From positions 136,584 through 200,583 of the forward strand of contig OZ220489.1 of NCBI GenBank assembly GCA_965115905.1: a stretch of DNA of 64,000 nucleotides, given 5' to 3'. How positions within the stretch are numbered: the stretch's first letter is position 1; each line of letters opens with the position of its first letter. The notes beneath the pieces are model-generated. The model searched no databases and was not told the origin of the DNA. It saw only the letters and a program-made list of their open reading frames with translations. This DNA comes from Tepidiformaceae bacterium. Its GTDB lineage: Bacteria > Chloroflexota > Dehalococcoidia > Tepidiformales > Tepidiformaceae. The translations under genes and the position numbers were made by a program. Positions 2,113-39,180 of the stretch are shown here, one piece after another.

Positions 2113-4941
2113 TCAGGGGACGCGGAAGACCTTCATGACTTCGTCGCCGAGGTGGTTGATGACCTTTACGGCGATGCGACCGGACTCGGGCTCGGCGAAG
2201 GGGCGCGAGACGGCGCTGTTCAGCGTCTCCCACGCTTCCCGGTTGATCTCGGCCTTGAGGGAGGTCTTGAGCGCCTGGTACGGGTCGCTCCTCTGGCCGA
2301 GGAAGTAGGCGTGGCGGACGAAGAAGCTTTCCTCATTGTAGTCGGTGTCGATGAACCAGCAGGCGATGCCATCGGGACCGTCGCTGCGGATCTCGCCCGT
2401 GCTCGGGTCGTAAACGTCGACGCCGTTGACCTTGACCTGGACCTGTCCGGACGGGATGTCAGGGTCATCGCTGGGGCCGAGGATGTTGATGTCGGGCTCG
2501 CCGAAGATGACGAAGAGGTTGCCCTTGCCCGTGGGCTTCAGGTCGTCCGCCATGTGCAGGTCGGCGTTCATGCGCGCCTTGAGGACGGGGATGCGGCCGA
2601 GGCGCTCGAACTCGGTGGTGTGCGCCTCGTAGTTGAAGGCGCAGGCGATGAGCACGTCGAAGCCCGCTTCGGCGGCCTCGCGGGCGGCTTCGACGAGGTC
2701 CGGGCGCGTGACGGTGCCGAACTCCGGCCCGATGAAGACGCCTGCGCGCTTCTCGACGCCGCCGGTGGCGTCGCCGTCGTCGTTCTCCGTTGCGCCCTCG
2801 ATGTAGCGCGCTTCCGCGCAGATGAGACCGCCGCCCGGCCACGGTTCCACCGAGGAGAAGACAATGCGGTCTTCCTTGTGCGCCTGTTGGACACCGGCCC
2901 TCTCGAGGTTCTCCAGGATCATCGAGGCGAAGTCCTGCGGCTTGTCGTAGGGGGCGGGGTGTTCGGCGAGGCGGTCGATCGGGTCACCGTTCGCGTTCAC
3001 GGCGAGCATGCGGTGGGGCGAGAGGCTCTCGACGGTGAAGGGGCCAGCGACGCGTACCTTACGGTTGTCCACGTAGGGCTTGTCGTAGAGGTATTCGTAG
3101 CCGGCGTTGGCGGCGATAGAGGCGTCTATTGCCTGCTGGCGGGCGATGCGCGCCTCCCGCCACTTGGCGTGGGCGTCCGCGGCGTCCGCGGGCCAGTCCG
3201 CTTCCGCCTCCCACGGGACTCCCCATTCCTCCCATGTCTGGCCGAGGCTGTCGTTGAGGCGGGCGAGGAGCGGCGCCAGGGTCTCCTGCCAGCGCTCCCA
3301 GATGACGTCGATCTCGGCGTTGTTGGCGATGTCCCGCAGCATGATGTGGGGGACCCGTTCGTAGACGAAGCCCTGACGGATGTCGCCGTAGGTGGGCTTG
3401 TCGGAGGGGGCGCGCTGCGTGAGCTGCGCCTCCTTCTGCTGGCCCCCGGGGCTGTCGGCGAGCAGGTACCAGGGGTAGCGGGCACCCATGACGCGGGCGC
3501 GAGCGAGGGCGAGAGCGACGCGGGAGGTGTCGATGGTGATCCAGCGGCGGCCCCACTGTTCGGCGACGTAGGCGGTGGTGCCGCTGCCGCAGGTGGGGTC
3601 GAGGACCAGGTCGCCGGGGTCGGTGGTCATGAGGATGCAGCGCTGGATAACAGTAGGGATGGTCTCAACCACATAGCGCTTATCCGCCGTAAAGCCAGCT
3701 CGTGATGTGTCACTCCAAGTATTTGTATATCTGAATACAGGGAAGTCATTCAGGAAACGGACATAACTCAGTGTATTGCCAGCGGCGGCAAGTCTTCCTG
3801 AAGCATCCAATCGACGGAACCCATCGGGAGTGGTCTTCCACGATCCTGACCTCATACGATACGATCTACCTTGGAAATCAACGGGGGTATTGACGGCCGA
3901 ATCACCACTTTGCGAGGTTATCTGATCTAACCTCGCAAAGTGGTGATTCGGCCGTCCGGAATTTTTTAATTGAGGTATTTTGGAAATCTCTCGATACGCA
4001 GTTCCGCCTTGCGAACCGGCTTCCTTCTCCCTCCAGAGAGTCCTGTATTTTACCCCCCCCCCCCCCGATTTCGAATACCAGATAATGCAGTCTGTTATCC
4101 TCGGAAGGTGGATGCTGGAAGAGTTGGCGGTCTTAACGAAACTGATCTGCGCCATGAAATTCTCTTCCCCGAACACCTCATCCATCAGTGACCGAACGCG
4201 GTGGACGTTCTCGTCGCCGATCTGGACGAAGATGGAACCAGAATCCGTGAGGAGGTCGCGAGCGACGATGAGGCGGTCGCGCAGGTAGGAGAGGTAGGAG
4301 TGGATGCCATCGCGCCAGGTATCGCGGAAGGCTTTGACCTGCTCAGGCTCGCGGGTGATGTGGTCGGCCTTGCCATCGCGCACGTCGCGGCTGGTGGTGG
4401 ACCACTGGAAGTTGGAGTTGAACTTGATGCCGTAGGGTGGGTCGATGTAGATGCACTGAACCTTGCCGCGCAGGCCCTCGCGCTCGTCGAGGGAGGCCAT
4501 GACCTGCAGGCTGTCGCCGAGGATCATGCGATTCTGCCAGTTGGCGTCGTGCTGGTAGAACTCGGTGCGGTCGGCGCCTTCGGGGAGGCCGTTGAAGTCG
4601 GCGAACATATCCGCCTGATGCCCGCCATCCGCGTCCTCGGCGTCGCGGCGGGAGTGGCGCAGGAGGTCATCGATGAGGGCCTTGGACTGGACCTTTTCCT
4701 GGATGTAGAGGGGCGCGGCGTTGACGACGAGGCCGGCGAGGTCCTGTTGCTCCTTGCCGCGCCAGACGAGCTGGGGGTCGAGGTCGGGGTTGCGGCGCTT
4801 GTACTCGACGGGGCGGGGACTGCGGTCGTCATCGCTCAGGAGGGGGCTGTCTTCGGCAGTGGGGATGTTGGTGCGCTTGTCCTCATCGTGGCGAATCGTC
4901 TGGACCTGTTTGGGGGCGCGGGGCTTCTTTGGGCGAGCCAT
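2113..4941 (-). CDS. mod: Type III-like restriction-modification DNA methyltransferase (Mod, beta-class N6A/N4C)
   Basis: 942 aa. Catalytic motif IV 'IYIDPPYGIKF' precedes the AdoMet motif I 'VLDPTCGSGTTAYVAEQ'. A variable central region lies between them. The gene sits 21 nt downstream of a Res-type helicase-nuclease gene. Confidence 0.9.
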   Translation of the reverse strand: MARPKKPRAPKQVQTIRHDEDKRTNIPTAEDSPLLSDDDRSPRPVEYKRRNPDLDPQLVWRGKEQQDLAGLVVNAAPLYIQEKVQSKALIDDLLRHSRRDAEDADGGHQADMFADFNGLPEGADRTEFYQHDANWQNRMILGDSLQVMASLDEREGLRGKVQCIYIDPPYGIKFNSNFQWSTTSRDVRDGKADHITREPEQVKAFRDTWRDGIHSYLSYLRDRLIVARDLLTDSGSIFVQIGDENVHRVRSLMDEVFGEENFMAQISFVKTANSSSIHLPRITDCIIWYSKSGGGGVKYRTLWREKEAGSQGGTAYREISKIPQLKNSGRPNHHFARLDQITSQSGDSAVNTPVDFQGRSYRMRSGSWKTTPDGFRRLDASGRLAAAGNTLSYVRFLNDFPVFRYTNTWSDTSRAGFTADKRYVVETIPTVIQRCILMTTDPGDLVLDPTCGSGTTAYVAEQWGRRWITIDTSRVALALARARVMGARYPWYLLADSPGGQQKEAQLTQRAPSDKPTYGDIRQGFVYERVPHIMLRDIANNAEIDVIWERWQETLAPLLARLNDSLGQTWEEWGVPWEAEADWPADAADAHAKWREARIARQQAIDASIAANAGYEYLYDKPYVDNRKVRVAGPFTVESLSPHRMLAVNANGDPIDRLAEHPAPYDKPQDFASMILENLERAGVQQAHKEDRIVFSSVEPWPGGGLICAEARYIEGATENDDGDATGGVEKRAGVFIGPEFGTVTRPDLVEAAREAAEAGFDVLIACAFNYEAHTTEFERLGRIPVLKARMNADLHMADDLKPTGKGNLFVIFGEPDINILGPSDDPDIPSGQVQVKVNGVDVYDPSTGEIRSDGPDGIACWFIDTDYNEESFFVRHAYFLGQRSDPYQALKTSLKAEINREAWETLNSAVSRPFAEPESGRIAVKVINHLGDEVMKVFRVP
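3895..3953. repeat. Perfect 25-bp inverted repeat with a 9-nt spacer inside the mod variable region
   Basis: ggccgaatcaccactttgcgaggtt (3895-3919), atctgatct, then aacctcgcaaagtggtgattcggcc (3929-3953). The arms are exact reverse complements and lie in-frame within the coding sequence. Confidence 0.95.
4053..4066 (-). repeat. Homopolymer tract C14 (+) = G14 on the coding strand, inside mod
   Basis: Counted directly: 'ta' followed by 14 C, then 'gatt'. It encodes the GGGG in 'YSKSGGGGVKY'. Other G/C runs I saw in the window reach at most about 8. Confidence 0.95.
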
Positions 4942-9307: not shown

Positions 9308-10123
9308 ATGGCCACGGGGGGAAGCGACATGGAACTGAAGACGGACAAGATGCTGGCGCGCAAGGAGGGCGGCGTTGGCTGGATGCTCTTCAACAATCCC
9401 GCGCGGCGGAACGCGCTCAGCATCGAGATGCAGCAGGCGATTCCGGTGATTCTTCACGACTTCCGGGACGATCCCGAGGTGCGGGTGGTGGTGATGGCGG
9501 GGACGGGCGACAAGGCGTTCGTCTCGGGGGCGGACATTTCCGAGTTCGAGAGCCGTCGCTCGGACCCGGAGTCGATCGCGACATTCAACCAGATCGGGGC
9601 GGCGGCGAACGCGGCCTACGCGGAGCTGGGCAAGCCGCTCATCGCGATGATCCGCGGGTTCTGTATGGGCGGCGGGCTGCTGACGGCGCTGCAGGCCGAC
9701 ATCCGCGTGGCGGCGGAGGACTCGCAGTTCGGGATTCCGGCGGCGCGGCTGGGGTTGGGGTACGGGTTCGGGGGGACGGAGAATCTGGTGCGGACGGTGG
9801 GAGCGGCGGCGGCGCGGGAGATCCTCTTTACGGGCGCCCGCTTTCCCGCGGAGGACGCGCTGCGCTGGGGCTTGGTGAACCGCGTCACGCCAGTCGAGGA
9901 GTTGGAGGCGACGGTGGCGCGCATCGCGGACGCGATCGCGGAGAACGCGCCGCTGACGGTGAGGCTGCTGCGCGCCTCGATTGTGGAGGCGGAGAAGGAG
10001 CGGGAGGCGCGCGATCTCGGCGCCATCGAGGCGATGGTGGAGGCGTGTTTCGCGAGCGAGGACTACGTCGAGGGGCGGCGTGCGTTCATGGAGAAGCGGC
10101 GTCCGGAGTTTCGGGGGCGGTAG
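9308..10123 (+). CDS. Enoyl-CoA hydratase/isomerase (crotonase) family protein
   Basis: 'AFVSGADISEF' and 'GFCMGGGLLTALQADIRVAAEDSQFGIPAARLGLG' match crotonase oxyanion-hole regions. The start is taken after the stop of the preceding gene. Confidence 0.85.
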   Translation: MATGGSDMELKTDKMLARKEGGVGWMLFNNPARRNALSIEMQQAIPVILHDFRDDPEVRVVVMAGTGDKAFVSGADISEFESRRSDPESIATFNQIGAAANAAYAELGKPLIAMIRGFCMGGGLLTALQADIRVAAEDSQFGIPAARLGLGYGFGGTENLVRTVGAAAAREILFTGARFPAEDALRWGLVNRVTPVEELEATVARIADAIAENAPLTVRLLRASIVEAEKEREARDLGAIEAMVEACFASEDYVEGRRAFMEKRRPEFRGR

Positions 10124-10363
10124 GGGGATTAGGGGGTCACGAGCGCGTCCGCTGCTTCCGCCCCCGCAGCGCGGCGCTCCGCTACCATGCTATAGACTGA
10201 CCACAAGTTTGAGTAGAGGGGTATAATGCTATAGAATTGATTCTGTCCTATCGAAGTAACTTTCAACATTTTGCCCTAGTAACACTGACTATACCTGTTA
10301 CTTCATCAAAAAATGCCTCGATCTTAGGACGCCCACTAGGACCAGGGCGGTAAAATTCGAGGC

Positions 10364-11983
10364 TCACTCTCCATACACCATTAGAAAGTTAGCAGTTCGG
10401 CGGTAGAGGGCATCGAACCATGTTAGGCTAGTTCCAGGACAGGCATAGTTAATCACAATCGTCCATACATCCCCCATGCTATAGCGTGGTGTAATCGTAG
10501 GCGGCGGAGTGGGTCGCGGAGTAGGCGCGGGCGTTGGCGGCGCAACTTGCGGGGGACTCCACGCCCGCGCCTCGGCCTTCGCCGCCGCTGCGTCTCGCTC
10601 CGCTCCTGCAACCTCGTCGCAGGCCACTTCTGGGTTTGTGTAGAGGAGTCGCCATACCGAGCACTTTTCCCTTCTGTATTCAACATACACTTCTTTCACA
10701 TAGAAACGCTTCCACAGCACACTTCCCCATGTAACTCTGGCGAGCGCATAGCGCTCCAAATCTGTAGCATAGGAAACGTCCGAAGACCAATAAGAGATAG
10801 CAGATTCGAGATATCTACTCATCGTGGCGTTCCGTGTGGACGGATCAGGACGCAACGCGATGAGGCGATCCACCATCGACTGTGCGAGGTCACGTTCTTG
10901 GCGAGCAATATTTGCCAATCTTCTTGATGGACTAGTATCATTTATTATTATGCTGTTCCATGAATCGGTGAGCACATCGATCGCATCAACTGTGGGATTC
11001 CAATCCTCGAGGACGCGATCTTCAAGTGATCCCATTTGTGCCCAAGTTGGAGTCACTCGATCGATACAGAAGTCGTACGGTAATGACCAGTGAGTCGAGA
11101 AATTTTCTTCATATACCTGAAGTTCATGGCAGCCCACGCCAAGCGCCTGAAGTGCAGTCTCTACGTCAGATGTATGGTAAGAGTTACCTCCTCTATTAAA
11201 GCGGTACAGGACGTTATCCCAGTCACTTACGCTGTGAGCCCATACATCCCAGCGACGGCCCAAGTCGAGGGAGGAAGAACGGCTGGCGCACATTGCCTGA
11301 ACGAGATTCTCCGATGGAGACTTCGTGCAGAAGGCAGTGATCGTGAGGCGACTCTCTACTGGCGGGGCGTCGCTGTCACCCATATCGTCGTCACCTATAT
11401 CCTGATCACCAGGATCAACAGGGTCTTCTTCGGCGTCGCTGTCGCCCATATCGTCGTCACCTATATCAGGCTCGGTGGGGGCTTCGGGTTCCGTGATGGG
11501 GATATCGACGGTGATGACATTGCTCTGGTGAAAGCGTCCAGAACGGCTGAGACGGGACATGTCGAGAGGCGCTTGCTCTGTCCGCCAAGAACCGCCTTCG
11601 AGCCGCGTGCTGATGTAGAGAACAGACGGGTCTGCGACGCTTCGCCAGACTGCGACCTCAACGTTTACGCGGTTGCCAGCCCAGTCCCTAACCTCGATCG
11701 TAACCACGCTGCTCTGGTGGAAGCGCCCTGAGCGGCTGAGACGGGACATGTCGAGGGGCTCCTGCTCCGTGCGCCAAGAGCCGCCCGCGGATCGCGTACT
11801 GAGGTACAGGACAGAAGAGTCCGCGACGCTCCGCCAGAGCGTTACCTCGGTAGCCGCGAATTCGGGATCCACAGGTTCGGCGGGCCCCTGCGCAGAGACT
11901 GCAGCGGCGCCTACCGCTGCGAGCGCAGCGAACGCCAAGCCCCAGAGCCACGCGCTTCTCACAACCGAACTGTACTTCACCAC
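10364..11983 (-). CDS. Secreted protein with two copies of an unassigned ~52-aa 'WRSV...GGSWRTEQ...SRSGRFHQS' repeat, an acidic linker and a low-GC C-terminal domain
   Basis: Signal-like 'WLWGLAFAALAAVGAAAVSAQG', two tandem repeats, and a duplicated 'DIGDDDMGDSDA' acidic segment. The start is uncertain (GTG 11983/11980/11962) and was chosen by alignment with the paralog at 15927. Confidence 0.7.
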   Translation of the reverse strand: MVKYSSVVRSAWLWGLAFAALAAVGAAAVSAQGPAEPVDPEFAATEVTLWRSVADSSVLYLSTRSAGGSWRTEQEPLDMSRLSRSGRFHQSSVVTIEVRDWAGNRVNVEVAVWRSVADPSVLYISTRLEGGSWRTEQAPLDMSRLSRSGRFHQSNVITVDIPITEPEAPTEPDIGDDDMGDSDAEEDPVDPGDQDIGDDDMGDSDAPPVESRLTITAFCTKSPSENLVQAMCASRSSSLDLGRRWDVWAHSVSDWDNVLYRFNRGGNSYHTSDVETALQALGVGCHELQVYEENFSTHWSLPYDFCIDRVTPTWAQMGSLEDRVLEDWNPTVDAIDVLTDSWNSIIINDTSPSRRLANIARQERDLAQSMVDRLIALRPDPSTRNATMSRYLESAISYWSSDVSYATDLERYALARVTWGSVLWKRFYVKEVYVEYRREKCSVWRLLYTNPEVACDEVAGAERDAAAAKAEARAWSPPQVAPPTPAPTPRPTPPPTITPRYSMGDVWTIVINYACPGTSLTWFDALYRRTANFLMVYGE

Positions 11984-32389: not shown

Positions 32390-33697
32390 ATGACGGCTAC
32401 GGAGGAAGCGCCGGCGGCGGGCGGAGGGGTGGGCGTCAACCGCGCGGGGATCGTCAGCCTTGCGGCGCTGGCGGCCACACTCGTGTTCGCGATCGCGCTC
32501 GGCTTCACGCTGGCGTTTCAGAACGACGAACAGGAATCGCCCGAGGATCGCTGGGCGGCGCTGGGCGTGCAGGAAGCGGAGTTCGTGTTCATCGGGGACC
32601 TGACCCCCGCCGAGCAGGCGTCGATCCGGCTGGAACTGAAGGCCGCGCAGACGCTGTTCGCCGATCACTTCGGGGCCGTGACCTCTGACTTCGTCGCCTA
32701 CGTGAGCACGGATCTGGGGGCGCTCAATGAGCGTCTGACGGAGGATAGGGGCGAGGACACCCAGATCTGGTTCCTGTGCGGGGGAATGGCGCTGGAAGGG
32801 CCCGCGCTCGTCCTGATACTTGATGGGTGCCCGGAGGACTTGCGCGCGCAGGGAGGACCGCTGGCGCACGAGTACTTCCACATCCTTCAGATGAAGGCCG
32901 GCCTCGACACACAGGAACAGGATGAAACCGTCCGGCAGCAGATCTGGTGGCTGGTGGAGGGCCCGGCGGTCTACGCCGGCGCCCTCGCCGATGCGGCACA
33001 GGGACGGGTGACCATGGCCGCCTCCCGCCAGGGAGCGCGACTCCGCGTCTCATCATCCGTGCGAGAGCCGCTCCCGCGCGATCTCTCCCTCGATTGGGCC
33101 ACGTACGCCGCGTACGCCTACTATGTCGGCTTTCTGGCGACAGAGTGGCTCGTGGAGCGCGCAGGACCGGCGGCGCTCCTGGACTTCTTCCGTTTCGGCG
33201 GGCATCAAGCGGCGTTCGAGGCGGCCTTTGGCATGACCCTGGACGAGTTCCACGATTCGTTCGAGGAGCATCGCCAGGAGGTCGCCCCGCCTTTTGCGTG
33301 GGAGGCGGCGGGCACGGTCATTGACTCCGATGGGCGTCCCATCCCCGAATTGATGATGATCACGGTCGTGCGGATGAAAGGGAAGCCTTGGCCTGGGGAG
33401 GAGGGCCTGACAGGCACGGAAGGGGACTTCTCGCTTACAGTCCCGGGAAGCGGCTACACGATTGCGCTCGCCTGGCTATGCTCCCGCGAAGGCGGCGCTT
33501 TCGAACCTGTCTTCGTGGGTGAGTGGGGCGCGGACGGGTTCGTCGCCGCCAGCGACGGACAGGTGACGCTATCCGAACAGGGGGCGGCGCCGGTTCGCGG
33601 CGGGGAGCGGGATCGCACGGACCTTGTCATCGAGCTTCCGGAGACGCGAGTGTCGCTGATCGCGAAGCACTGCCTCGACGAGGACGACGACGTTTGA
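32390..33697 (+). CDS. Membrane-anchored putative zinc metallopeptidase (HExxH), copy 1
   Basis: N-terminal TM 'GIVSLAALAATLVFAIALGFTLAF', 'GGPLAHEYFHILQ' (HExxH), and a C-terminal CarboxypepD_reg-like segment 'GTVIDSDGRPIPEL...GDFSLTVPGSGYTI'. Confidence 0.7.
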   Translation: MTATEEAPAAGGGVGVNRAGIVSLAALAATLVFAIALGFTLAFQNDEQESPEDRWAALGVQEAEFVFIGDLTPAEQASIRLELKAAQTLFADHFGAVTSDFVAYVSTDLGALNERLTEDRGEDTQIWFLCGGMALEGPALVLILDGCPEDLRAQGGPLAHEYFHILQMKAGLDTQEQDETVRQQIWWLVEGPAVYAGALADAAQGRVTMAASRQGARLRVSSSVREPLPRDLSLDWATYAAYAYYVGFLATEWLVERAGPAALLDFFRFGGHQAAFEAAFGMTLDEFHDSFEEHRQEVAPPFAWEAAGTVIDSDGRPIPELMMITVVRMKGKPWPGEEGLTGTEGDFSLTVPGSGYTIALAWLCSREGGAFEPVFVGEWGADGFVAASDGQVTLSEQGAAPVRGGERDRTDLVIELPETRVSLIAKHCLDEDDDV

Positions 33698-33794: not shown

Positions 33795-35102
33795 ATGGCG
33801 CCTACAGAGGAAGCGCCTGGGACGGGCGGATGGGTGGGCGTCGACCGCGCGGGGATCGTCAGTCTTGCGGCGCTGGCGGCCACGCTCCTGCTCGCGATCG
33901 CGCTCGGCTTCACGCTAGCGTGCGGGAGTGAGGAACAGGACTCGCTCGAGGATCGCTGGGCGCTGCTGGGCGTGCCGGAAGCGGAGTTCGTGTTCATCGG
34001 AGACCTCACGCCCGACGAGCAGGCGTCGATCAGGCGGGAACTGAAGGTCGCGCAGACGCTGTTCGCCGATCACTTCGGGGCCGTGACCTCGGACTTCGTC
34101 GCCTATGTGAGCACGGATCTGGAGGCGCTCAACGAGCGGCTGGCGGCGGATAAGGGCGAGGACGTCCAGAGCGGGATCCCGTGCGGGGGCATGGCGCTGG
34201 ACGAGTACGCGCTTGTCCTGTCTCTTGATGGGTGCACGGAGGCCAAGCGAGCGCAGGGGGGACCGCTGGCGCACGAGTATTTCCACATCCTCCAGATGAA
34301 AGCCGGCCTCGACACACACAAACTGGAAGGAACCGACCTGCAGCCCTGGTTTCCCTGGCTGGTGGAGGGGCCGGCGGTCTACGCCGAAGGCCTCGCCGAT
34401 GTGGCGCAGGGACGGGTGACCACGGCCGCCTACCGTCAGGCGATGCGACTCCGCGTCTCGTCATCCGTGCGCGAGCCGCTCCCGCGCAATCTCTCTCTTG
34501 CTTCGGCCGACTACGCTGCATACGCCTACCATGCCGGCTTTCTGGCGACGGAGTGGCTCGTGGAACGCGCGGGGCCGGAGACGCTCCTGGAGTTCTTCCG
34601 TCTCGGCAGACCACAGGAGGCGGCGTTCGAGGCGGCCTTTGGCATGACCCTGGACGAGTTCCATGATTCGTTCGAAGAGCATCGTCTGGAGGTCGCCCCA
34701 CCCTTCGAGTGGGAGGTCGCGGGCATGGTCGTTGACCCCGACGGGCAGCCGATCCCTGAGTTGCTCCTGGTCACTGTCGTGCGGATCAAAGGGACGCCGT
34801 GGGTTGTAGGGGGGATCGCGACAGATCCGAAAGGGAACTTTGCGCTCACAGCCCCGGGAAGCGGCTACACGATCGCGATCACCTTGCACTGCCTTCGTGA
34901 AGACGGCGCTTACGAAGAGCATTTCGTGGGTGAGTGGGGCGCAGACGGGTTCGTCGCCAACAACGACGGACAGAGGGAACCATCCAAACAGGGGGCGGCG
35001 CCATTCCGTGACGGGGAGCGGGATCGCACGGACCTTGTCATCGAGCTTCCGGAGACGCACGCGGCGCTGAGCGCAAAGCACTGCCCCGACGAAGACGGCT
35101 AG
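33795..35102 (+). CDS. Membrane-anchored putative zinc metallopeptidase (HExxH), copy 2
   Basis: Same length (435 aa) and architecture as copy 1. 'GGPLAHEYFHILQ' is conserved. Confidence 0.7.
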   Translation: MAPTEEAPGTGGWVGVDRAGIVSLAALAATLLLAIALGFTLACGSEEQDSLEDRWALLGVPEAEFVFIGDLTPDEQASIRRELKVAQTLFADHFGAVTSDFVAYVSTDLEALNERLAADKGEDVQSGIPCGGMALDEYALVLSLDGCTEAKRAQGGPLAHEYFHILQMKAGLDTHKLEGTDLQPWFPWLVEGPAVYAEGLADVAQGRVTTAAYRQAMRLRVSSSVREPLPRNLSLASADYAAYAYHAGFLATEWLVERAGPETLLEFFRLGRPQEAAFEAAFGMTLDEFHDSFEEHRLEVAPPFEWEVAGMVVDPDGQPIPELLLVTVVRIKGTPWVVGGIATDPKGNFALTAPGSGYTIAITLHCLREDGAYEEHFVGEWGADGFVANNDGQREPSKQGAAPFRDGERDRTDLVIELPETHAALSAKHCPDEDG

Positions 35103-35162
35103 CGGGATAGCGCCCGCGTCATCCTGCCGCCGCCTTCCTACAATAGGCGCGGAGGAGACACG

Positions 35163-35825
35163 ATGACTGACAGCGGGCTTCTTGATGACGAACTGAAGAC
35201 GGTACGGGACGGGTTCGCGGCGCGCATGCCGCAACTGATCGAGACGGTCGAGGCTGCAATCGAGGAGATCGAGGCGGCGACCATCGGGCGGGCGCTCGAC
35301 GTGGGAGCGCGGGCGCCGGACTTCCGCCTGCGGGACGTCACGCACGAACGGGAGGCGAGCCTGTCGGAGGCGCTGGCGCAGGGGCCAGCGGTCGTTTCGT
35401 TCTATCGGGGTGAGTGGTGACCGTTCTGCAATATTGAGCTGCAGGGTCTGCAGCGACGGTACTGCGAGCTCCGCGACCTTGGGGCGACGCTCTTCTTCAT
35501 CGGCCCCGAGCGGGAGGAGAGCGCGCGCACGCTGCTCGGCAAGGTCGGGACGGACATCCCCGTGCTGAACGACCGCGAGGGCGCGGTGATGGACGCGTAC
35601 GGCGTCAGCTTCGACCTTCCTGAACGGCTGCGGCCGGCCTATCGGGGACTGGGTTTCCCCGACCGCAATCCGGAGACGGGGTGGCGGCTGCCGGTACCGG
35701 CGACGTTCGTGATCGACCGGGGCGGCGTGATCCGCTCACGGCACTGCCTGGCGGACTATCGCTACCGGATGGAGCCGCGCGACGTCGTAGCGGCGGTCAC
35801 GGCGCTGGCGACGGGGGAGGGCTAG
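35163..35825 (+). CDS. Peroxiredoxin-like (AhpC/TSA, PRX_like2-type) protein with in-frame TGA at the redox Cys; candidate selenoprotein (UxxC)
   Basis: Track ORFs 35163-35420 and 35562-35825 share one frame interrupted only by TGA 35418-35420. Read-through gives 'VVSFYRGEW-U-PFCNIELQGL...', where the family has WCPxC. Family-like sequence continues between the two ORFs. A hairpin lies 17 nt downstream. Confidence 0.6.
35438..35454 (+). promoter_or_regulatory. Candidate bacterial SECIS apical hairpin
   Basis: GCUGCAG-GGU-CUGCAGC (7-bp stem). It starts 17 nt after the UGA. The core UGCAGGGUCUGCA resembles the E. coli fdhF SECIS apex UGCAGGUCUGCA as I recall it. Confidence 0.5.
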
Positions 35826-35832
35826 TGCGGGC

Positions 35833-36654
35833 ATGCGGCGGTTCGCCAGGCGCCTAACGGGCTCGAACGGCTTTGAGTACTTCATCGTCGCGCTGATCAT
35901 CGGGAACGGGGCGCTCCTGGGGCTGGAGACGGTTCAGGGGATTGCGGATGGGTACCAAGCATGGCTGAACGCCGGCTACCGGCTGACGCTGGGGGTCTTC
36001 ATCGCGGAGGCGGCGCTGAAACTGTTTGCGCTCGCGCCGCGCCCGGACCGCTACTTTCGCGATCCCTGGAACGTGTTCGACTTCTCGATCATCGCGCTGT
36101 CGCTGATTCCGGCGGTGGGGCCGTTCGCGGTGGTGGCGCGGATGGCGCGGCTGATGCGCCTCCTGCGGCTGGTTTCGGCGATCCCGGAGCTGCGGCTCAT
36201 CGTCACCACGCTGGTGCGCTCGATTCCGGGGATGCTGCACATCGTGGCGGTGATGAGCGTGCTGGCCTACATCTACGCGATCATCGGATTCCAGCTCTTC
36301 CACGAGCACGATCCGGAGCACTGGCGGAATCTCGGCGTCTCGCTGCTCTCGTTGTTCCGGATCGTCACGCTGGAGGACTGGACGGACATCATGTACGTGG
36401 CGATGGACCTGCACCCGCTGGCCTGGATCTACTTCCTGAGCTTTGTGGTCCTGGGGGCGTTCGTGACGATCAACCTGTTCATCGCGGTCGTCATCAACAA
36501 TCTGGATGAGGCGAAGCAGGAACGCCTGCGGCATCTGCAGGATACGGCGGGGGGCTCACGCGAGGAGTTGATCGCCGAGTTGCGGGCGGCGCGGGAGGCC
36601 CTGGGGAAGCTGGAACAACGGCTCAGCCAGAGCGGGGAGGGGAGGAGCCCCTGA
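35833..36654 (+). CDS. Bacterial voltage-gated cation channel (NaChBac/BacNaV family)
   Basis: 273 aa and 6-TM. S4 is 'RMARLMRLLRLV' (Arg every third residue). The pore is 'LFRIVTLEDWTDIMY'. There is a C-terminal coiled-coil-like tail. Confidence 0.85.
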   Translation: MRRFARRLTGSNGFEYFIVALIIGNGALLGLETVQGIADGYQAWLNAGYRLTLGVFIAEAALKLFALAPRPDRYFRDPWNVFDFSIIALSLIPAVGPFAVVARMARLMRLLRLVSAIPELRLIVTTLVRSIPGMLHIVAVMSVLAYIYAIIGFQLFHEHDPEHWRNLGVSLLSLFRIVTLEDWTDIMYVAMDLHPLAWIYFLSFVVLGAFVTINLFIAVVINNLDEAKQERLRHLQDTAGGSREELIAELRAAREALGKLEQRLSQSGEGRSP

Positions 36655-36715: not shown

Positions 36716-37951
36716 ATGCCGCAAGCGCTCGCACACCTGCGCATCTGCGACTTCACGGGGCAACTGGCGGGGGCGGGCGCGACCCGCTTCCTGGCGGCCT
36801 TCGGGGCGCAGGTCATCCGCATCGAGGATCCGGTCACTGAGGGGCGCTGGGACATCCTGCGGGGGATGCCGCCCTACGTGGATGAACGGCGGGGGATTGA
36901 CCTTGGCGGCGCCTTCAACAACCACAATGTCGAGAAGCTGGGGGTCACGCTGAACCTGCGCACGGAGCGCGGGAAGGAGTTGCTGCGGGAGCTGGTGGCG
37001 ATCTCGGACGTGGTGGCGGAGAACTTCTCGGCGGGCGTGCTGGAGCGCTGGGGGTTCGGCTACGAGGAGCTGAAGGCGATCCGCGACGACATCATCTACG
37101 TTTCGAACTGCGGGTTTGGACACGACGGCCCCTATCGCGACTTCAAGACGTGGGGGCCGGTCGTACAGGCGGTCTCGGGGCTGACGTTCAGTTCGGGGCT
37201 GCCGGATCAGCCGCCAGCGGGCTGGGGCTACTCGTACATGGATCACACGGGCGCGTACTACATGGCGATCGCGATCCTGATGGCGTTGCGCCACCGGAAG
37301 CGCACGGGCGAGGGGCAGTGGGTGGACATCGGGTGCACGGAGGCGGCGGCGAGCCTGACCGGTCCGGCGGTGCTGGACTACACCGTGAACGGGCGTCCGC
37401 TGCGGCGGCCGGGGGGCCCGCACAGCAACCGCAGCCAGCATCCCGCGATGGCGCCGCACGGCATCTACGCCGCGCGGGAGGAGGATACGTGGGTGGCCAT
37501 CGCGTGTCGCGATAACCGTGACTGGGCGGCGTTCGGGGAGGCGACGGGGGAGGCGTGGGCGCGCGAGGAGCGCTTTGCGGACCTGCAGGGGCGGCTGGCG
37601 GAGGAGGACGCGCTCGACAGCCTGCTGACGGGGTGGACGCGGGCGCGGGGGAACTTCGAGACGGCGGCGCTGCTACAAGGGGCGGGGATACCGGCGACGG
37701 CTGTGCAGCGTCCGCAGGAACGCGTCGACGCTGACCCGAACACGGAGGCGTGGGGGCTGTGGCCAACGGTGCGGCATCGCAAGATGGGAGCGGTGCGGGT
37801 CGATGGGTTGCCAGTGCGCTTCTCGAAGACGGACTGGCGCCTCGAACGGGGCGGACCGTGTCTGGGGGAGCACAACGAGGCGGTGTTCGGCGGGCTGCTG
37901 GGGCTGAGTTCCGGGGAGATCCGCGCGCTGACGGAGCAGGGGGTGTTGTGA
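36716..37951 (+). CDS. Family III CoA-transferase (CaiB/BaiF type)
   Basis: 'LAHLRICDFTGQLAGAGATRFLAAFGAQVIRIEDP', 'DVVAENF', and 'GYSYMDHTGAYY'. Confidence 0.85.
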   Translation: MPQALAHLRICDFTGQLAGAGATRFLAAFGAQVIRIEDPVTEGRWDILRGMPPYVDERRGIDLGGAFNNHNVEKLGVTLNLRTERGKELLRELVAISDVVAENFSAGVLERWGFGYEELKAIRDDIIYVSNCGFGHDGPYRDFKTWGPVVQAVSGLTFSSGLPDQPPAGWGYSYMDHTGAYYMAIAILMALRHRKRTGEGQWVDIGCTEAAASLTGPAVLDYTVNGRPLRRPGGPHSNRSQHPAMAPHGIYAAREEDTWVAIACRDNRDWAAFGEATGEAWAREERFADLQGRLAEEDALDSLLTGWTRARGNFETAALLQGAGIPATAVQRPQERVDADPNTEAWGLWPTVRHRKMGAVRVDGLPVRFSKTDWRLERGGPCLGEHNEAVFGGLLGLSSGEIRALTEQGVL

Positions 37952-39180
37952 TGGTCGCGGGGGCGCTGGAGGGGCTGCGCGTGGTCGAGTTGTGCGATGA
38001 GCTGGGGATGTTCGCGGGCAAGCTGCTGGCGGACATGGGCGCGGACGTCGTCAAGGTGGAGCCGCCGGAGGGCGATCCGACGAGGGGGCACCCGCCCTTC
38101 GTGGATGACGAGCCCGGGCCGGAGCGCAGCCTCTACTTCTGGCACTACAACACGAGCAAGTCAGGAGTCACGCTTGACCCGGAGAGGGAGGCGGATCGGG
38201 AGCGGTTGCGGGCGCTCATCGACAGGGCGGACATCCTGCTACAGAGCGGGGAGGCGGGGGCGGACCTCGACTACGAACGGCTGCGGGAGACGAACGCGGG
38301 GCTGATCATGGTCACGATCAGCCCATTCGGGCGAGGAATGCCGCGCGAGGGGGAGGCGGCGACGGACCTGACGATCCTGGCGGGGGGCGGGCCAGTCTGG
38401 AACTGCGGGTACGACGACCACGCGCTGCCGCCGGTGCGGGGCGGCGGGAACCAGGGCTACCACACCGCAAGCCATTTCGCGGTGATGTCAGCGCTGGTGG
38501 CGCTGCTCTACCGGGACGAGACGGGGCGGGGACAGCGCATCGATGTGAACGCGCACGCGGCGGCGAACGTGACGACGGAGGCGGGCAGCTACACATGGCT
38601 GGTCGCGCAGGAGACGGTGCAGCGCCAGACGGGACGTCATGCGGCGGTGAACCCCTCGATGCCGTCGCAGGTGCTGTGCGCGGACGGCCGTTACGTCAAC
38701 ACCGGCCTCCCGCCACGGCGGCCGGAGGCGTTCGCGGCGGTCTGCGAATGGCTGCGGGCGGCGGGGCTGGCGGAAGGGTTCGTGGAGTTTCCGCTGCTGG
38801 AGGAGGGGATGCGGCGGGAGCGCTTCGATATGTCGAGGCTGCAGCAGGATGAGGAGCTGCTGGCGATATTCGGGGCGGGGCGCGCGGCCATGAACCTGCT
38901 GGCCTCGCGGTTGACGGCGTACGAGTTCTTCACGGAGGGACAGCGGCGGGGGTTTCAGATCGGGATCATCTACGCACCCGAGGAGGCGCTGGAGGACCCG
39001 CACTTCATCGCGCGCGGGTTCCCGGTGGAGGTGGAGCACCCGGAGCTGGAGCGAACGGTGACGTATCCGGGGGCGCCGTACCAGTTCGGGGCGTCGCCGT
39101 GGCGGATCCGGCGGCGCGCGCCGCTGCTGGGCGAGGACAACGCACGCGTATTCGCGGAACTGGCGGAGGATACGGAGTAA
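37951..39180 (+). CDS. Family III CoA-transferase (CaiB/BaiF type)
   Basis: ATG 37951 overlaps the upstream TGA. 'LEGLRVVELCDELGMFAGKLLADMGADVVKVEPP'. Confidence 0.85.
   Translation: MVAGALEGLRVVELCDELGMFAGKLLADMGADVVKVEPPEGDPTRGHPPFVDDEPGPERSLYFWHYNTSKSGVTLDPEREADRERLRALIDRADILLQSGEAGADLDYERLRETNAGLIMVTISPFGRGMPREGEAATDLTILAGGGPVWNCGYDDHALPPVRGGGNQGYHTASHFAVMSALVALLYRDETGRGQRIDVNAHAAANVTTEAGSYTWLVAQETVQRQTGRHAAVNPSMPSQVLCADGRYVNTGLPPRRPEAFAAVCEWLRAAGLAEGFVEFPLLEEGMRRERFDMSRLQQDEELLAIFGAGRAAMNLLASRLTAYEFFTEGQRRGFQIGIIYAPEEALEDPHFIARGFPVEVEHPELERTVTYPGAPYQFGASPWRIRRRAPLLGEDNARVFAELAEDTE

What the first reader, a model, noticed from the sequence alone, without database searches (positions are those of the whole stretch)
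35163..35825. Candidate selenocysteine-containing peroxiredoxin-like protein (UxxC) that ORF calling splits in two
Seen in sequence:
- The two track ORFs (35163-35420 and 35562-35825) are in the same frame. They are separated by a single TGA (35418-35420) with no other stop.
- The read-through product (220 aa) is '...GPAVVSFYRGEW[TGA]PFCNIELQGLQRRYCELRDLGATLFFIGPEREE...PVLNDREGAVMDAYGV...PATFVIDRGGVI'. It is family-like across the stretch not covered by either ORF, so there is no sign of decay.
- The TGA sits exactly where AhpC/TSA PRX_like2 proteins carry the first Cys of WCPxC.
- Seventeen nt downstream is a 7-bp hairpin, GCUGCAG-GGU-CUGCAGC. Its core, UGCAGGGUCUGCA, is very close to the apical minihelix of the E. 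coli fdhF SECIS (UGCAGGUCUGCA, recalled from the literature).

Established knowledge: Prx-like and other thioredoxin-fold UxxC proteins are known bacterial selenoprotein families, and they are routinely mis-annotated as pseudogenes.

Inference: this gene is translated through UGA as Sec.
Basis: partly seen in the sequence, partly recalled or inferred. Interest (0 to 1): 0.75.

Follow-up and report, generated by a model that had tools for sequence, protein, structure and literature searches.

The report
Peroxiredoxin-like selenoprotein gene, UxxC type
A 220-codon thioredoxin-fold redox gene in a Chloroflexota (Tepidiformaceae-type) genome contains a TGA that is almost certainly read as selenocysteine; this is a well-known kind of gene that automatic annotation routinely cuts in two.

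Summary
Window 35163-35825 (+) is one reading frame with a single internal TGA (35418-35420). A 7-bp hairpin with a GGU loop follows it at 35438-35454.

The Sec interpretation is well supported.
- The TGA sits at the first Cys of the invariant W-C-P-[FY]-C motif of about 80 Cys homologs.
- It is conserved in 16 species-level Tepidiformaceae/Dehalococcoidia genomes (73-82% identity), in several metagenome contigs, and in two more distant lineages.
- dN/dS is about 0.26 upstream and 0.27 downstream of the TGA.
- TGA is the ordinary stop codon in this lineage.
- The hairpin meets the published bacterial SECIS criteria.
- Codons +5 to +12 are the stretch of lowest synonymous diversity in the gene (0.031 against a median of 0.262), with rare GGT and CGA codons invariant.

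Weak points:
- No selA, selB, selD or tRNA-Sec could be examined, because none lies in the window or in any locus held.
- The stem shows no compensatory covariation.
- A hairpin like this follows 13% of all UGA triplets in the window.
- Some relatives carry decayed copies.

UxxC Prx-like selenoproteins have been known since 2004-2005, and Dehalococcoidia are known Sec users. This is a new member of a known kind, mis-split in public annotation. Interest is low to moderate.

The parts
35151..35157 (+). Shine-Dalgarno-like GGAGGAG, 5 nt upstream of the ATG start
   Evidence: Read directly from the sequence. No comparable motif precedes the internal ATT at 35433 or the GTG at 35562.
35163..35825 (+). 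Complete selenoprotein CDS: 220 codons plus TAG stop. Peroxiredoxin-like / AhpC-TSA thioredoxin-fold protein with a U-P-F-C active site.
   Evidence: Single frame with one internal TGA. PF00578 matches aa 47-192, E=1.3e-22. Intact orthologs at 73-82% identity in 16 genomes. dN/dS about 0.26 upstream and 0.27 downstream of the TGA.
35418..35420 (+). In-frame TGA, the predicted selenocysteine codon (residue 86)
   Evidence: Aligns with the first Cys of the invariant W-C-P-x-C in 64 full-length Cys homologs. TGA in 27 distinct orthologous sequences, against TGC/TGT in 81 distinct Cys homologs.
35418..35429 (+). U-P-F-C redox motif (Sec86...Cys89)
   Evidence: Read from the sequence. In the AlphaFold model of Cys homolog P0004 (pLDDT 93), the equivalent WCPFC lies at the N-terminal end of helix 88-99. 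It aligns with the ResA active-site motif.
35421..35456 (+). Zone of suppressed synonymous variation (codons +1 to +12 after the TGA), containing the SECIS
   Evidence: Mean synonymous heterozygosity is 0.058 for codons +1..+13, against 0.268 upstream and 0.283 downstream. Codons +5..+12 are the lowest 8-codon window of the gene, 0.031 against a median of 0.262. GGT is 6% of Gly codons and CGA 3% of Arg codons elsewhere, yet both are invariant at +9 and +12 (17/17; usage).
35438..35454 (+). Predicted bacterial SECIS apical hairpin: stem 35438-35444 / 35448-35454, loop GGU 35445-35447. Equivalently a 6-bp stem with a G-GGU-C loop.
   Evidence: Present in the MFE fold. Hairpin energy -9.8 kcal/mol, 24 nt between UGA and the loop, G in the first loop position. 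It therefore meets the bSECIS constraints quoted in PMC13188914. RNAalifold recovers the 6-bp stem independently. The stem is conserved in clade 2, with loop AGGUG.
35833..36654 (+). Context only: downstream 273-aa Ion_trans channel gene starting 8 nt after the prx stop. Conserved neighbour and probable co-transcribed partner.
   Evidence: PF00520 E=5.5e-51. Present downstream at 69-79% identity in most clade-1 loci.

Best explanation
Window 35163-35825 encodes one 220-residue cytoplasmic thioredoxin-fold protein of the peroxiredoxin-like (AhpC/TSA, PRX_like2-type) group. Its active site is Sec86-Pro-Phe-Cys89. During translation the UGA at 35418-35420 is recoded as selenocysteine. The mRNA hairpin 24 nt downstream (35438-35454, GGU in the loop) acts as a bacterial SECIS. 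It would recruit SelB-GTP-Sec-tRNA(Sec) to the ribosome so that Sec is inserted in place of termination.

Sec86 sits at the N-terminal end of the active-site helix, where CxxC oxidoreductases carry their nucleophilic Cys. The protein would therefore cycle between a selenol/thiol form and a selenenylsulfide (Se-S) with Cys89, working as a thiol:disulfide (or hydroperoxide) reductase.

Shown here: the single frame, family membership across the TGA, the Sec/Cys pairing, conservation of the TGA, purifying selection on both halves, the SECIS-type hairpin, and RNA-level constraint on it. Inferred: actual Sec insertion, SelB dependence, and the catalytic chemistry.
For: 1. One frame, one internal TGA; PF00578 matches across it at E=1.3e-22.
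2. Sec/Cys pair. All 64 full-length homologs at 36-46% identity have invariant W-C-P-x-C at this column. The metagenome loci gave 85 TGC/TGT sites.
3. The TGA is conserved in 16 GTDB species-representative genomes of Tepidiformaceae/Dehalococcoidia (L010-L025, 73-82% identity) and in Illumina metagenome scaffolds L005 and L007-L009. It is also present in a second clade at about 46% identity (L028, L029, L031, L056/57) and in a third lineage (L134).
4. Median dN/dS against the window gene is 0.26 upstream and 0.27 downstream of the TGA, with dS of 0.4-0.9, so the downstream half is translated.
5. TGA is a normal terminator in this lineage. It ends 14 of 17 orthologs of this same gene and 3 of the 6 genes around it in the window.
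6. By the published bSECIS criteria (loop 3-9 nt, stem 4-16 bp, G in the first two loop positions, spacing 16-37 nt, energy <= -7.5; PMC13188914), 26 of 27 distinct TGA sequences pass, against 6 of 81 distinct Cys homologs.
7. RNA-level selection: codons +5..+12 have the lowest synonymous diversity in the gene, and the rare codons GGT and CGA are invariant there. The one stem substitution seen (L005, A to G) keeps pairing as G.U.
8. The apical sequence UGCAGGGUCUGCA differs by one G from the E. coli fdhF SECIS minihelix.
9. Gene callers split the orthologs in the same way. The closest database proteins are 121-131-aa C-terminal fragments, and the window's own 85-aa N-terminal piece is held as a separate protein.
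10. UxxC Prx-like proteins are an established selenoprotein family (PMC1088965, PMC1794560). Dehalococcoidia include very selenoprotein-rich genomes (PMC13326102).
Against: 1. No Sec machinery was seen. There is no tRNA-Sec and no SelA/SelB/SelD homolog in the window or in about 1.2 Mb of related loci. That DNA all comes from around homologs of this gene, so the absence says little, but the key prerequisite remains untested for this genome and family.
2. There is no compensatory covariation in the stem; it is simply invariant.
3. CTGCAG is a palindrome. The peptide E-L-Q-G-L-Q-R written in the preferred high-GC codons would nearly produce the hairpin by itself, and such hairpins follow 13% of all UGA triplets in the window.
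4. No Rfam family matches. Rfam gave no SECIS hit at gathering or permissive thresholds.
5. Decayed copies exist. L002/L003/L004/L030 (2.30-Mb chromosome OZ241349.1) has three frameshifts, L006 has lost the UxxC core, and L023 has a 3' frameshift.
6. No other selenoprotein candidate was found in the 64-kb window or in the flanks of L010-L031.
Confidence: 0.88

Rival explanations
1. Pseudogene: a nonsense mutation (TGC/TGT to TGA) inactivated a Cys-type peroxiredoxin-like gene, and the two ORFs are decaying remnants.
For: Some relatives are clearly decaying. L002/L030 has three frameshifts, L006 has a deleted core and L023 has a 3' frameshift. No Sec machinery was found in the DNA held.
Against: The same TGA occurs in 27 distinct sequences, including 16 species-level genomes with dS of 0.4-0.9. 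None of the intact copies has any other stop or frameshift, and dN/dS downstream of the TGA is 0.27, equal to upstream. A dead gene would not keep its 3' half under purifying selection across that much divergence.
Confidence: 0.03
2. UGA is read through, but not as Sec. A near-cognate tRNA (Trp or Cys) or a dedicated opal-suppressor tRNA would insert a standard amino acid, for example Cys, and the hairpin would act only as a read-through stimulator.
For: Sec machinery is untested. Cys at this position would give a functional CxxC enzyme like the homologs. Cys form L027 keeps the same hairpin.
Against: The hairpin has the specific SECIS features: GGU in a small loop, 24-nt spacing, and near-identity to the fdhF minihelix. 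The UGA sits exactly at a catalytic Cys, as in all known Sec/Cys pairs. I found no description of UGA-to-Cys decoding in this group; the Chloroflexi SepRS/SepCysS paper does not mention UGA or opal suppression. A lineage that wanted Cys could simply use TGC, as its neighbours do.
Confidence: 0.05
3. Two separate products: translation ends at the TGA to give an 85-aa peptide, and restarts at the nearby ATT/GTG to give a 128-aa C-terminal protein, as gene callers annotate.
For: Gene callers produce exactly these fragments in many assemblies. In some orthologs codon +5 is GTG.
Against: Codon +5 is ATT, ATC, GTG or CTT in different orthologs, so there is no conserved start codon. No Shine-Dalgarno precedes it. 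Neither fragment would hold a complete thioredoxin fold, and the C-terminal piece would lack the whole UxxC motif.
Confidence: 0.02
4. Genome-wide reassignment of TGA to a sense codon, as in genetic codes 4 or 25.
For: None beyond the in-frame TGA itself.
Against: TGA ends 14 of 17 orthologs of this gene and 3 of 6 neighbouring window genes at the expected protein lengths. A frame-aware scan found no other coding-looking TGA interruption in the window.
Confidence: 0.01

Closest known systems
Prx-like thiol:disulfide oxidoreductase selenoproteins (PF00578, UxxC/UxxU; prototype WP_010940744.1 as listed in PMC13188914; 22 sequences in the Sargasso Sea set)
   Same: AhpC/TSA (PF00578) domain, thioredoxin-like UxxC motif with Sec in the first position, widespread Cys homologs, and a SECIS hairpin directly downstream of the UGA.
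   Different: The window protein has a 45-residue N-terminal two-helix extension and belongs to the group NCBI names 'peroxiredoxin-like family protein'. The host is Tepidiformaceae/Dehalococcoidia, not Deltaproteobacteria or ocean plankton.
[quoted passage not shown]
   Same: Apparently the same conserved-domain family. Cys homologs of the window protein carry the NCBI name 'peroxiredoxin-like family protein', and Sec occupies the first position of the xxx motif.
   Different: The motif here is UxxC with an invariant second Cys, not UxxS. Assignment to cd02970 could not be tested because no CDD search is available.
E. coli fdhF SECIS (the SelB-binding apical minihelix)
   Same: It lies immediately 3' of the UGA inside the coding region. 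The apical sequence is UGCAGGUCUGCA in fdhF and UGCAGGGUCUGCA here, with G and U in the loop.
   Different: The loop is one G longer and sits about 5-6 nt further from the UGA. No bulged U is evident in the short perfect stem, and there is no conserved lower stem. SelB binding is inferred, not shown.
ResA/TlpA-type CxxC thiol-disulfide oxidoreductases and BCP/PrxQ/AhpE peroxiredoxins (solved structures)
   Same: Same thioredoxin/peroxiredoxin fold. ResA is the best sequence match in the PDB (E=1e-7), with its active-site motif aligned to W-U-P-F-C. BCP/PrxQ, AhpE and ResA are the best fold matches to the model of the Cys homolog, with target TM 0.81-0.90.
   Different: Only 13-23% identity in the fold matches. 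All NCBIfam models score far below their cut-offs, for example ResA 41.5 against 170 bits. The peroxiredoxin TxxC signature is replaced by UxxC. There is an extra N-terminal helical hairpin, and nothing in the sequence marks it as a membrane-anchored periplasmic protein like ResA (localisation not tested).
Sec-containing peroxiredoxin PrxU (TxxU; NF040737)
   Same: PF00578 selenoprotein with a redox function.
   Different: In PrxU the Sec is at the peroxidatic position (TxxU). Here Sec occupies the position of the Thr and a Cys occupies the peroxidatic position. The NF040737 score is 23 bits against a cut-off of 270.

Membership tests
Bacterial selenoprotein gene (UGA recoded as Sec) | In-frame UGA that aligns with Cys in homologs (Sec/Cys pair) | tested here: met
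   W-TGA-P-F-C against invariant W-C-P-x-C in 64 full-length homologs and 81 distinct Cys-codon DNA sequences.
Bacterial selenoprotein gene (UGA recoded as Sec) | UGA conserved in orthologs, with coding constraint continuing downstream | tested here: met
   27 distinct TGA sequences, 16 of them from species-level genomes. dN/dS is 0.26 upstream and 0.27 downstream.
Bacterial selenoprotein gene (UGA recoded as Sec) | [quoted passage not shown] | tested here: met
   Window: 7-bp stem, GGU loop, 24-nt spacing, -9.8 kcal/mol. 26 of 27 TGA sequences pass against 6 of 81 Cys forms. Synonymous constraint peaks on it. No covariation was found.
Bacterial selenoprotein gene (UGA recoded as Sec) | selA, selB, selD and tRNA-Sec (selC) present in the same genome | not testable with these tools
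   None is present in the 64-kb window or in about 1.2 Mb of loci. Class-level support only (PMC13326102).
Bacterial selenoprotein gene (UGA recoded as Sec) | Selenium physically incorporated (75Se labelling or mass spectrometry) | not testable with these tools
   This is an experiment.
Prx-like thiol:disulfide oxidoreductase selenoprotein family (PF00578, UxxC) | AhpC/TSA domain | tested here: met
   PF00578 at 80.5 bits against a cut-off of 26, covering aa 47-192.
Prx-like thiol:disulfide oxidoreductase selenoprotein family (PF00578, UxxC) | Thioredoxin-like UxxC motif in place of the peroxiredoxin TxxC/TxxU | tested here: met
   U86-P-F-C89 read from the sequence. The family definition is quoted from PMC1088965.
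Prx-like thiol:disulfide oxidoreductase selenoprotein family (PF00578, UxxC) | Sequence orthology to the described prototype (WP_010940744.1) | not tested
   The prototype sequence could not be retrieved with the tools available.
CDD cd02970 PRX_like2 / NCBI 'peroxiredoxin-like family protein' | Match to the cd02970 model | not testable with these tools
   No CDD library is available. Indirect evidence: Cys homologs P0029 and P0084 (41% identity) carry that NCBI name.
Typical peroxiredoxin (PxxxT/SxxC peroxidatic motif) | Pro and Thr/Ser at -7 and -3 of the peroxidatic Cys | tested here: not met
   The sequence reads F-Y-R-G-E-W-U-P-F-C. Arg occupies the Pro position and Sec occupies the Thr position. 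NCBIfam peroxiredoxin models score far below their cut-offs.
ResA/TlpA/DsbE thiol-disulfide oxidoreductases | Score above the family cut-off | tested here: not met
   NF002854 ResA scores 41.5 bits against a cut-off of 170, and DsbE 24.7 against 359. Similar fold and motif only.
Rfam RNA families | Match to any curated RNA model | tested here: not met
   No hit at gathering thresholds in the window, and only noise at E<=10 in 35300-35600. I did not confirm that Rfam holds a suitable bacterial SECIS model, so this carries little weight.

The most novel reading that the evidence does not exclude
The Sec-type Prx-like protein may be a dedicated redox partner or regulator of the BacNav-sized Ion_trans channel encoded immediately downstream. 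That gene starts 8 nt after the prx stop in the window; in relatives L007-L009 the next called gene, which was not identified, overlaps the prx stop by 4-8 nt. This would be a selenoprotein-ion channel module specific to Tepidiformaceae-type Chloroflexota. In addition, the family may record repeated Sec/Cys switching: three TGA lineages are interleaved with Cys forms, one Cys form keeps the SECIS hairpin, and some genomes carry decayed copies. This switching could track gain or loss of the Sec machinery.
Probability: 0.1. Interest if true: 0.5.

Novelty: new member of a known kind. Interest (0 to 1): 0.25.

Why it matters
The practical point is annotation. Public protein sets hold this gene, and its orthologs in at least 16 species-level genomes, as two meaningless fragments. 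No NCBIfam model reaches its cut-off on it, so the gene is easy to miss. Re-joining the fragments adds a selenoenzyme to the redox repertoire of an uncultured Chloroflexota family. It also implies that these organisms need selenium and the Sec machinery.

The family also gives a compact data set on Sec/Cys exchange. It has three TGA lineages, one Cys form that still has the hairpin, and several decayed copies. None of this changes what is known about Sec decoding.

Tried and rejected
- Rfam at gathering and permissive thresholds gave no SECIS or other hit.
- ARAGORN on the window and on all loci found no tRNA-Sec.
- tblastn with E. coli SelA, SelB and SelD, taken from NC_000913.3, against the window and about 1.2 Mb of loci gave no hits.
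- I tried to identify the window's source contig by exact protein look-up. The channel protein and the 85-aa fragment are not on record in the contig index. The cluster look-up does show the fragment on a 2,358,194-bp contig.
- A covariation test of the hairpin found no pair with changes on both sides. Support therefore rests on constraint, not covariation.
- A scan for a second selenoprotein gene in the window and in the flanks of L010-L031 found nothing convincing.
- Literature searches linking Tepidiformaceae/Tepidiforma or sponge Chloroflexi to selenoproteins returned nothing relevant. No BSepDB supplements are held.
- The Chloroflexi SepRS/SepCysS paper was checked as a possible basis for UGA-to-Cys decoding; it does not mention UGA or opal suppression.
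- I ran no further search on SelA/B/D. With an E. coli query, the 120 listed hits would be enterobacterial and would say nothing about this lineage.
Full report
OBSERVATION. Window 35163-35825 (+) translates as one frame of 220 codons. It has a single internal stop, TGA at 35418-35420, and a terminal TAG. A strong Shine-Dalgarno motif (GGAGGAG, 35151-35157) precedes the ATG. Nothing comparable precedes the internal ATT or GTG that gene callers could use. With Cys substituted at the TGA, Pfam AhpC-TSA matches residues 47-192 in one stretch across the TGA (E=1.3e-22), and Redoxin matches at 7.7e-17. The hairpin GCUGCAG-GGU-CUGCAGC lies at 35438-35454, 17 nt after the TGA, and appears in the minimum-energy fold.

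HOMOLOGS AND THE Sec/Cys COLUMN. A search of 5.8 billion predicted proteins gave two kinds of hit. The closest (71-82% identity) are all fragments of 121-131 aa that begin at M-E-L-Q-G-L-Q-R-R, just after the UxxC position. This means gene callers split the orthologs too. The full-length hits (36-48% identity, 204-232 aa) all have W-C-P-[FY]-C at the aligned position; W, C, P and C are invariant in an alignment of 64 of them with the window protein. The DNA of the fragment-encoding contigs shows TGG-TGA-CCG-TTC-TGC followed by the same hairpin. Illumina scaffolds L005, L007, L008 and L009 read through without any other defect.

A scan of one genome per GTDB species found 16 loci (L010-L025) with intact TGA orthologs at 73-82% identity. 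These come from MAGs labelled Tepidiformaceae or Dehalococcoidia, two labelled Anaerolineaceae or Gemmatimonadetes, and several are complete chromosomes of 2.7-3.8 Mb. A second clade at about 46% identity (L028, L029, L031, and metagenome contigs L056/L057) also has W-TGA-[PT]-Y-C. A third lineage (L134, position 3359) has V-W-TGA-P-Y-C. Cys forms sit between them: L026, L027 and L055 at 47-51% identity, plus 81 distinct others. A rough neighbour-joining tree without support values interleaves the three TGA lineages with Cys forms. The window therefore comes from a Tepidiformaceae-type member of the Chloroflexota.

IS THE GENE TRANSLATED PAST THE TGA? Pairwise Nei-Gojobori estimates against 17 orthologs give a median dN/dS of 0.26 upstream and 0.27 downstream of the TGA, with dS of 0.4-0.9. 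Both halves are under the same purifying selection, which excludes a dead gene. TGA is a normal terminator in this lineage. It ends 14 of 17 orthologs of this same gene and 3 of 6 genes around it in the window, including the gene immediately downstream. A frame-aware scan found no other coding-looking TGA interruption in the window. The genetic code is therefore not reassigned. The codon gene callers use as a restart is ATT, ATC, GTG or CTT in different orthologs, so re-initiation is not a conserved feature.

THE HAIRPIN. The 2026 review PMC13188914 states the consensus bacterial SECIS constraints: apical loop 3-9 nt, upper stem 4-16 bp, a G in the first two loop positions, 16-37 nt between the UGA and the loop, and energy <= -7.5 kcal/mol. 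The window hairpin has a 7-bp stem, a GGU loop, 24-nt spacing and -9.8 kcal/mol. I applied these criteria to every distinct sequence held. 26 of 27 TGA sequences pass; L134, with a different hairpin UGGAGCU-GGA-GGCUCUA at 20-nt spacing, scores -6.7. Only 6 of 81 Cys homologs pass. Clade 2 keeps the 6-bp stem GCUGCA/UGCAGC with loop AGGUG, so the conserved core is a 6-bp stem with an NGGUN loop. RNAalifold recovers this independently.

Three caveats apply to the hairpin. The stem is invariant, so there is no compensatory covariation; the only variants are one A-U to G.U change in L005 and loss of the seventh pair in clade 2. CTGCAG is a palindrome, so E-L-Q-G-L-Q-R in preferred codons almost builds the hairpin by itself. 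Hairpins passing these criteria follow 13% of all UGA triplets in this 68% GC window.

What argues for selection on the RNA itself is the pattern of synonymous change. Across 17-18 orthologs, mean synonymous heterozygosity is 0.058 in codons +1..+13, against 0.268 upstream and 0.283 downstream. The lowest 8-codon window in the whole gene is +5..+12, at 0.031 against a median of 0.262. The Gly codon in the loop is GGT and the Arg codon after the stem is CGA in all 17 sequences, although GGT is 6% of Gly codons and CGA 3% of Arg codons elsewhere in these genes. The peptide E-L-Q-G-[LV]-Q itself is confined to the TGA clades. Cys forms mostly read E-L-R-A-F-Q, Q-L-R-H-L-E and similar.

WHAT THE PROTEIN IS. 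No NCBIfam model reaches its cut-off. The best are ResA at 41.5 against 170 bits, and the selenoprotein-related models SelL_rel_redox, PrxU and WAxxUGC, all far below threshold. The best PDB sequence matches are ResA-type CxxC thiol-disulfide oxidoreductases (E=1e-7), with their active-site motif aligned to W-U-P-F-C. The closest full-length Cys homolog, P0004 (44% identity), was modelled from a 64-sequence alignment and gave pLDDT 93 and pTM 0.91. It has two N-terminal helices followed by a thioredoxin/peroxiredoxin fold, with WCPFC at the N-terminal end of helix 88-99. Fold search puts it nearest BCP/PrxQ peroxiredoxins, AhpE and ResA (target TM 0.81-0.90, 13-23% identity). No solved structure covers the N-terminal extension. 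The peroxiredoxin signature PxxxTxxC is not present: Arg stands at the Pro position and Sec at the Thr position. That is exactly how the Sargasso Sea paper defines the 'Prx-like' selenoprotein family, with a thioredoxin-like UXXC in place of TXXU (PMC1088965). The likely chemistry, a selenolate nucleophile at residue 86 forming a selenenylsulfide with Cys89, is inferred from that placement and was not tested.

Sec MACHINERY. This is the untested prerequisite. There is no tRNA of any kind in the window, no tRNA-Sec in any locus, and no tblastn hit for E. coli SelA, SelB or SelD in the window or in about 1.2 Mb of loci. Those loci all surround homologs of this gene, so the negative result says little. 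The window's contig could not be retrieved, although its 85-aa fragment is recorded from a 2,358,194-bp contig. Literature gives class-level support only. Chloroflexi were already listed with selenoproteins in 2006 (PMC1794560). BSepDB places two Dehalococcoidia MAGs, with 49 and 46 selenoprotein genes, among the ten most selenoprotein-rich bacteria (PMC13326102). Searches for Tepidiformaceae or sponge Chloroflexi together with selenoprotein terms found nothing relevant.

DECAYED COPIES. L002/L003/L004/L030, from the 2.30-Mb chromosome OZ241349.1 and seen in independent assemblies, has three single-base indels, yet its TGA and hairpin are intact. L006 has an in-frame deletion of the whole UxxC core. 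L023 has a 3' frameshift. The indels in L001 lie in a 4x long-read contig and may be errors. These show occasional loss of the gene, as described for selenoproteins generally (PMC1794560). They do not outweigh 16 intact species-level orthologs.

COMPARISON WITH WHAT IS KNOWN. UxxC Prx-like thiol:disulfide oxidoreductases are an established, computationally predicted selenoprotein family. There were 22 sequences in the Sargasso Sea set, and the 2006 survey lists them in Geobacter, Syntrophus and Desulfotalea; the review rates the family 'predicted with high confidence'. The review also lists a cd02970 'peroxiredoxin-like family protein' selenoprotein with UxxS. The window gene works like these and meets every family feature I could test. 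Its orthology to the named prototypes, and its cd02970 assignment, could not be tested. I file it as a new member of a known kind. BSepDB, which covers 16,621 species, may already hold it, but I could not check.

VERDICT. My confidence that the UGA is decoded as Sec through a downstream SECIS hairpin is 0.88. The residual doubt is the unexamined Sec machinery and the lack of covariation. Interest is 0.25: a textbook mechanism and a known family, with value mainly for annotation and as a tidy example of Sec/Cys turnover.

Noticed in passing
window 32390-33697 and 33795-35102 (+): Two tandem paralogous 435-aa ORFs directly upstream of the selenoprotein gene. Both carry an HEYFH (HExxH-type) motif and have only weak, sub-threshold hits to Peptidase_M9 / Peptidase_MA_2. 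Homologs at 45-53% identity sit upstream of the prx gene in many related loci.
   Followed up: partly
window 35833-36654 (+); L001 10483-11936; L005 1538-2353; L006 614-1471: A 273-aa Ion_trans channel gene (PF00520, E=5.5e-51), the size of a single-domain bacterial voltage-gated-type channel. It starts 8 nt after the prx stop and is conserved downstream in most clade-1 loci at 69-79% identity. It is duplicated in L001. In L007-L009 the next called gene, which was not identified, overlaps the prx stop by 4-8 nt, suggesting co-translation.
   Followed up: partly
window 36716-37951 and 37948-39180 (+): Two family III CoA-transferase genes overlapping by 4 nt. The first is conserved at 84-87% identity next to the prx-channel pair in nearly all clade-1 relatives.
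   Followed up: partly
L002/L030 about 9700-10370 (OZ241349.1); L006 110-520; L023 1070-1703: Decayed copies of the selenoprotein gene. L002/L030 has three frameshifts but a perfectly intact TGA and hairpin, L006 has an in-frame deletion of the UxxC core, and L023 has a 3' frameshift. Whether these genomes have lost the Sec machinery is unknown.
   Followed up: partly
L027 around 1998: A Cys-type homolog (TGC) from a Tepidiformaceae MAG still carries the SECIS-like hairpin GCUGCG-GGGUG-UGCAGC at the same distance. This is possibly a relic of a Sec-to-Cys change, or a precursor state.
   Followed up: partly
L134 1121-1759 and about 3050-3763: One 3.9-kb metagenome contig carries a Cys-type paralog and, about 1.3 kb downstream, a Sec-type paralog (TGA at 3359). 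The Sec-type copy has a different hairpin, UGGAGCU-GGA-GGCUCUA, 20 nt after the TGA.
   Followed up: partly
window 35748-35750 (Cys196 in R-S-R-H-C-L-A-D-Y): An extra Cys conserved in the intact clade-1 Sec orthologs listed. It is absent from clade 2 and from the closest Cys forms, which read V/L-N-A-D-Y. It might act as a resolving or regulatory Cys.
   Followed up: no
window 35163-35417: The 85-aa N-terminal fragment is stored in public protein collections (NCBI, ENA) as a separate protein from a 2,358,194-bp contig. The deposited annotation of the source genome therefore splits the gene.
   Followed up: partly
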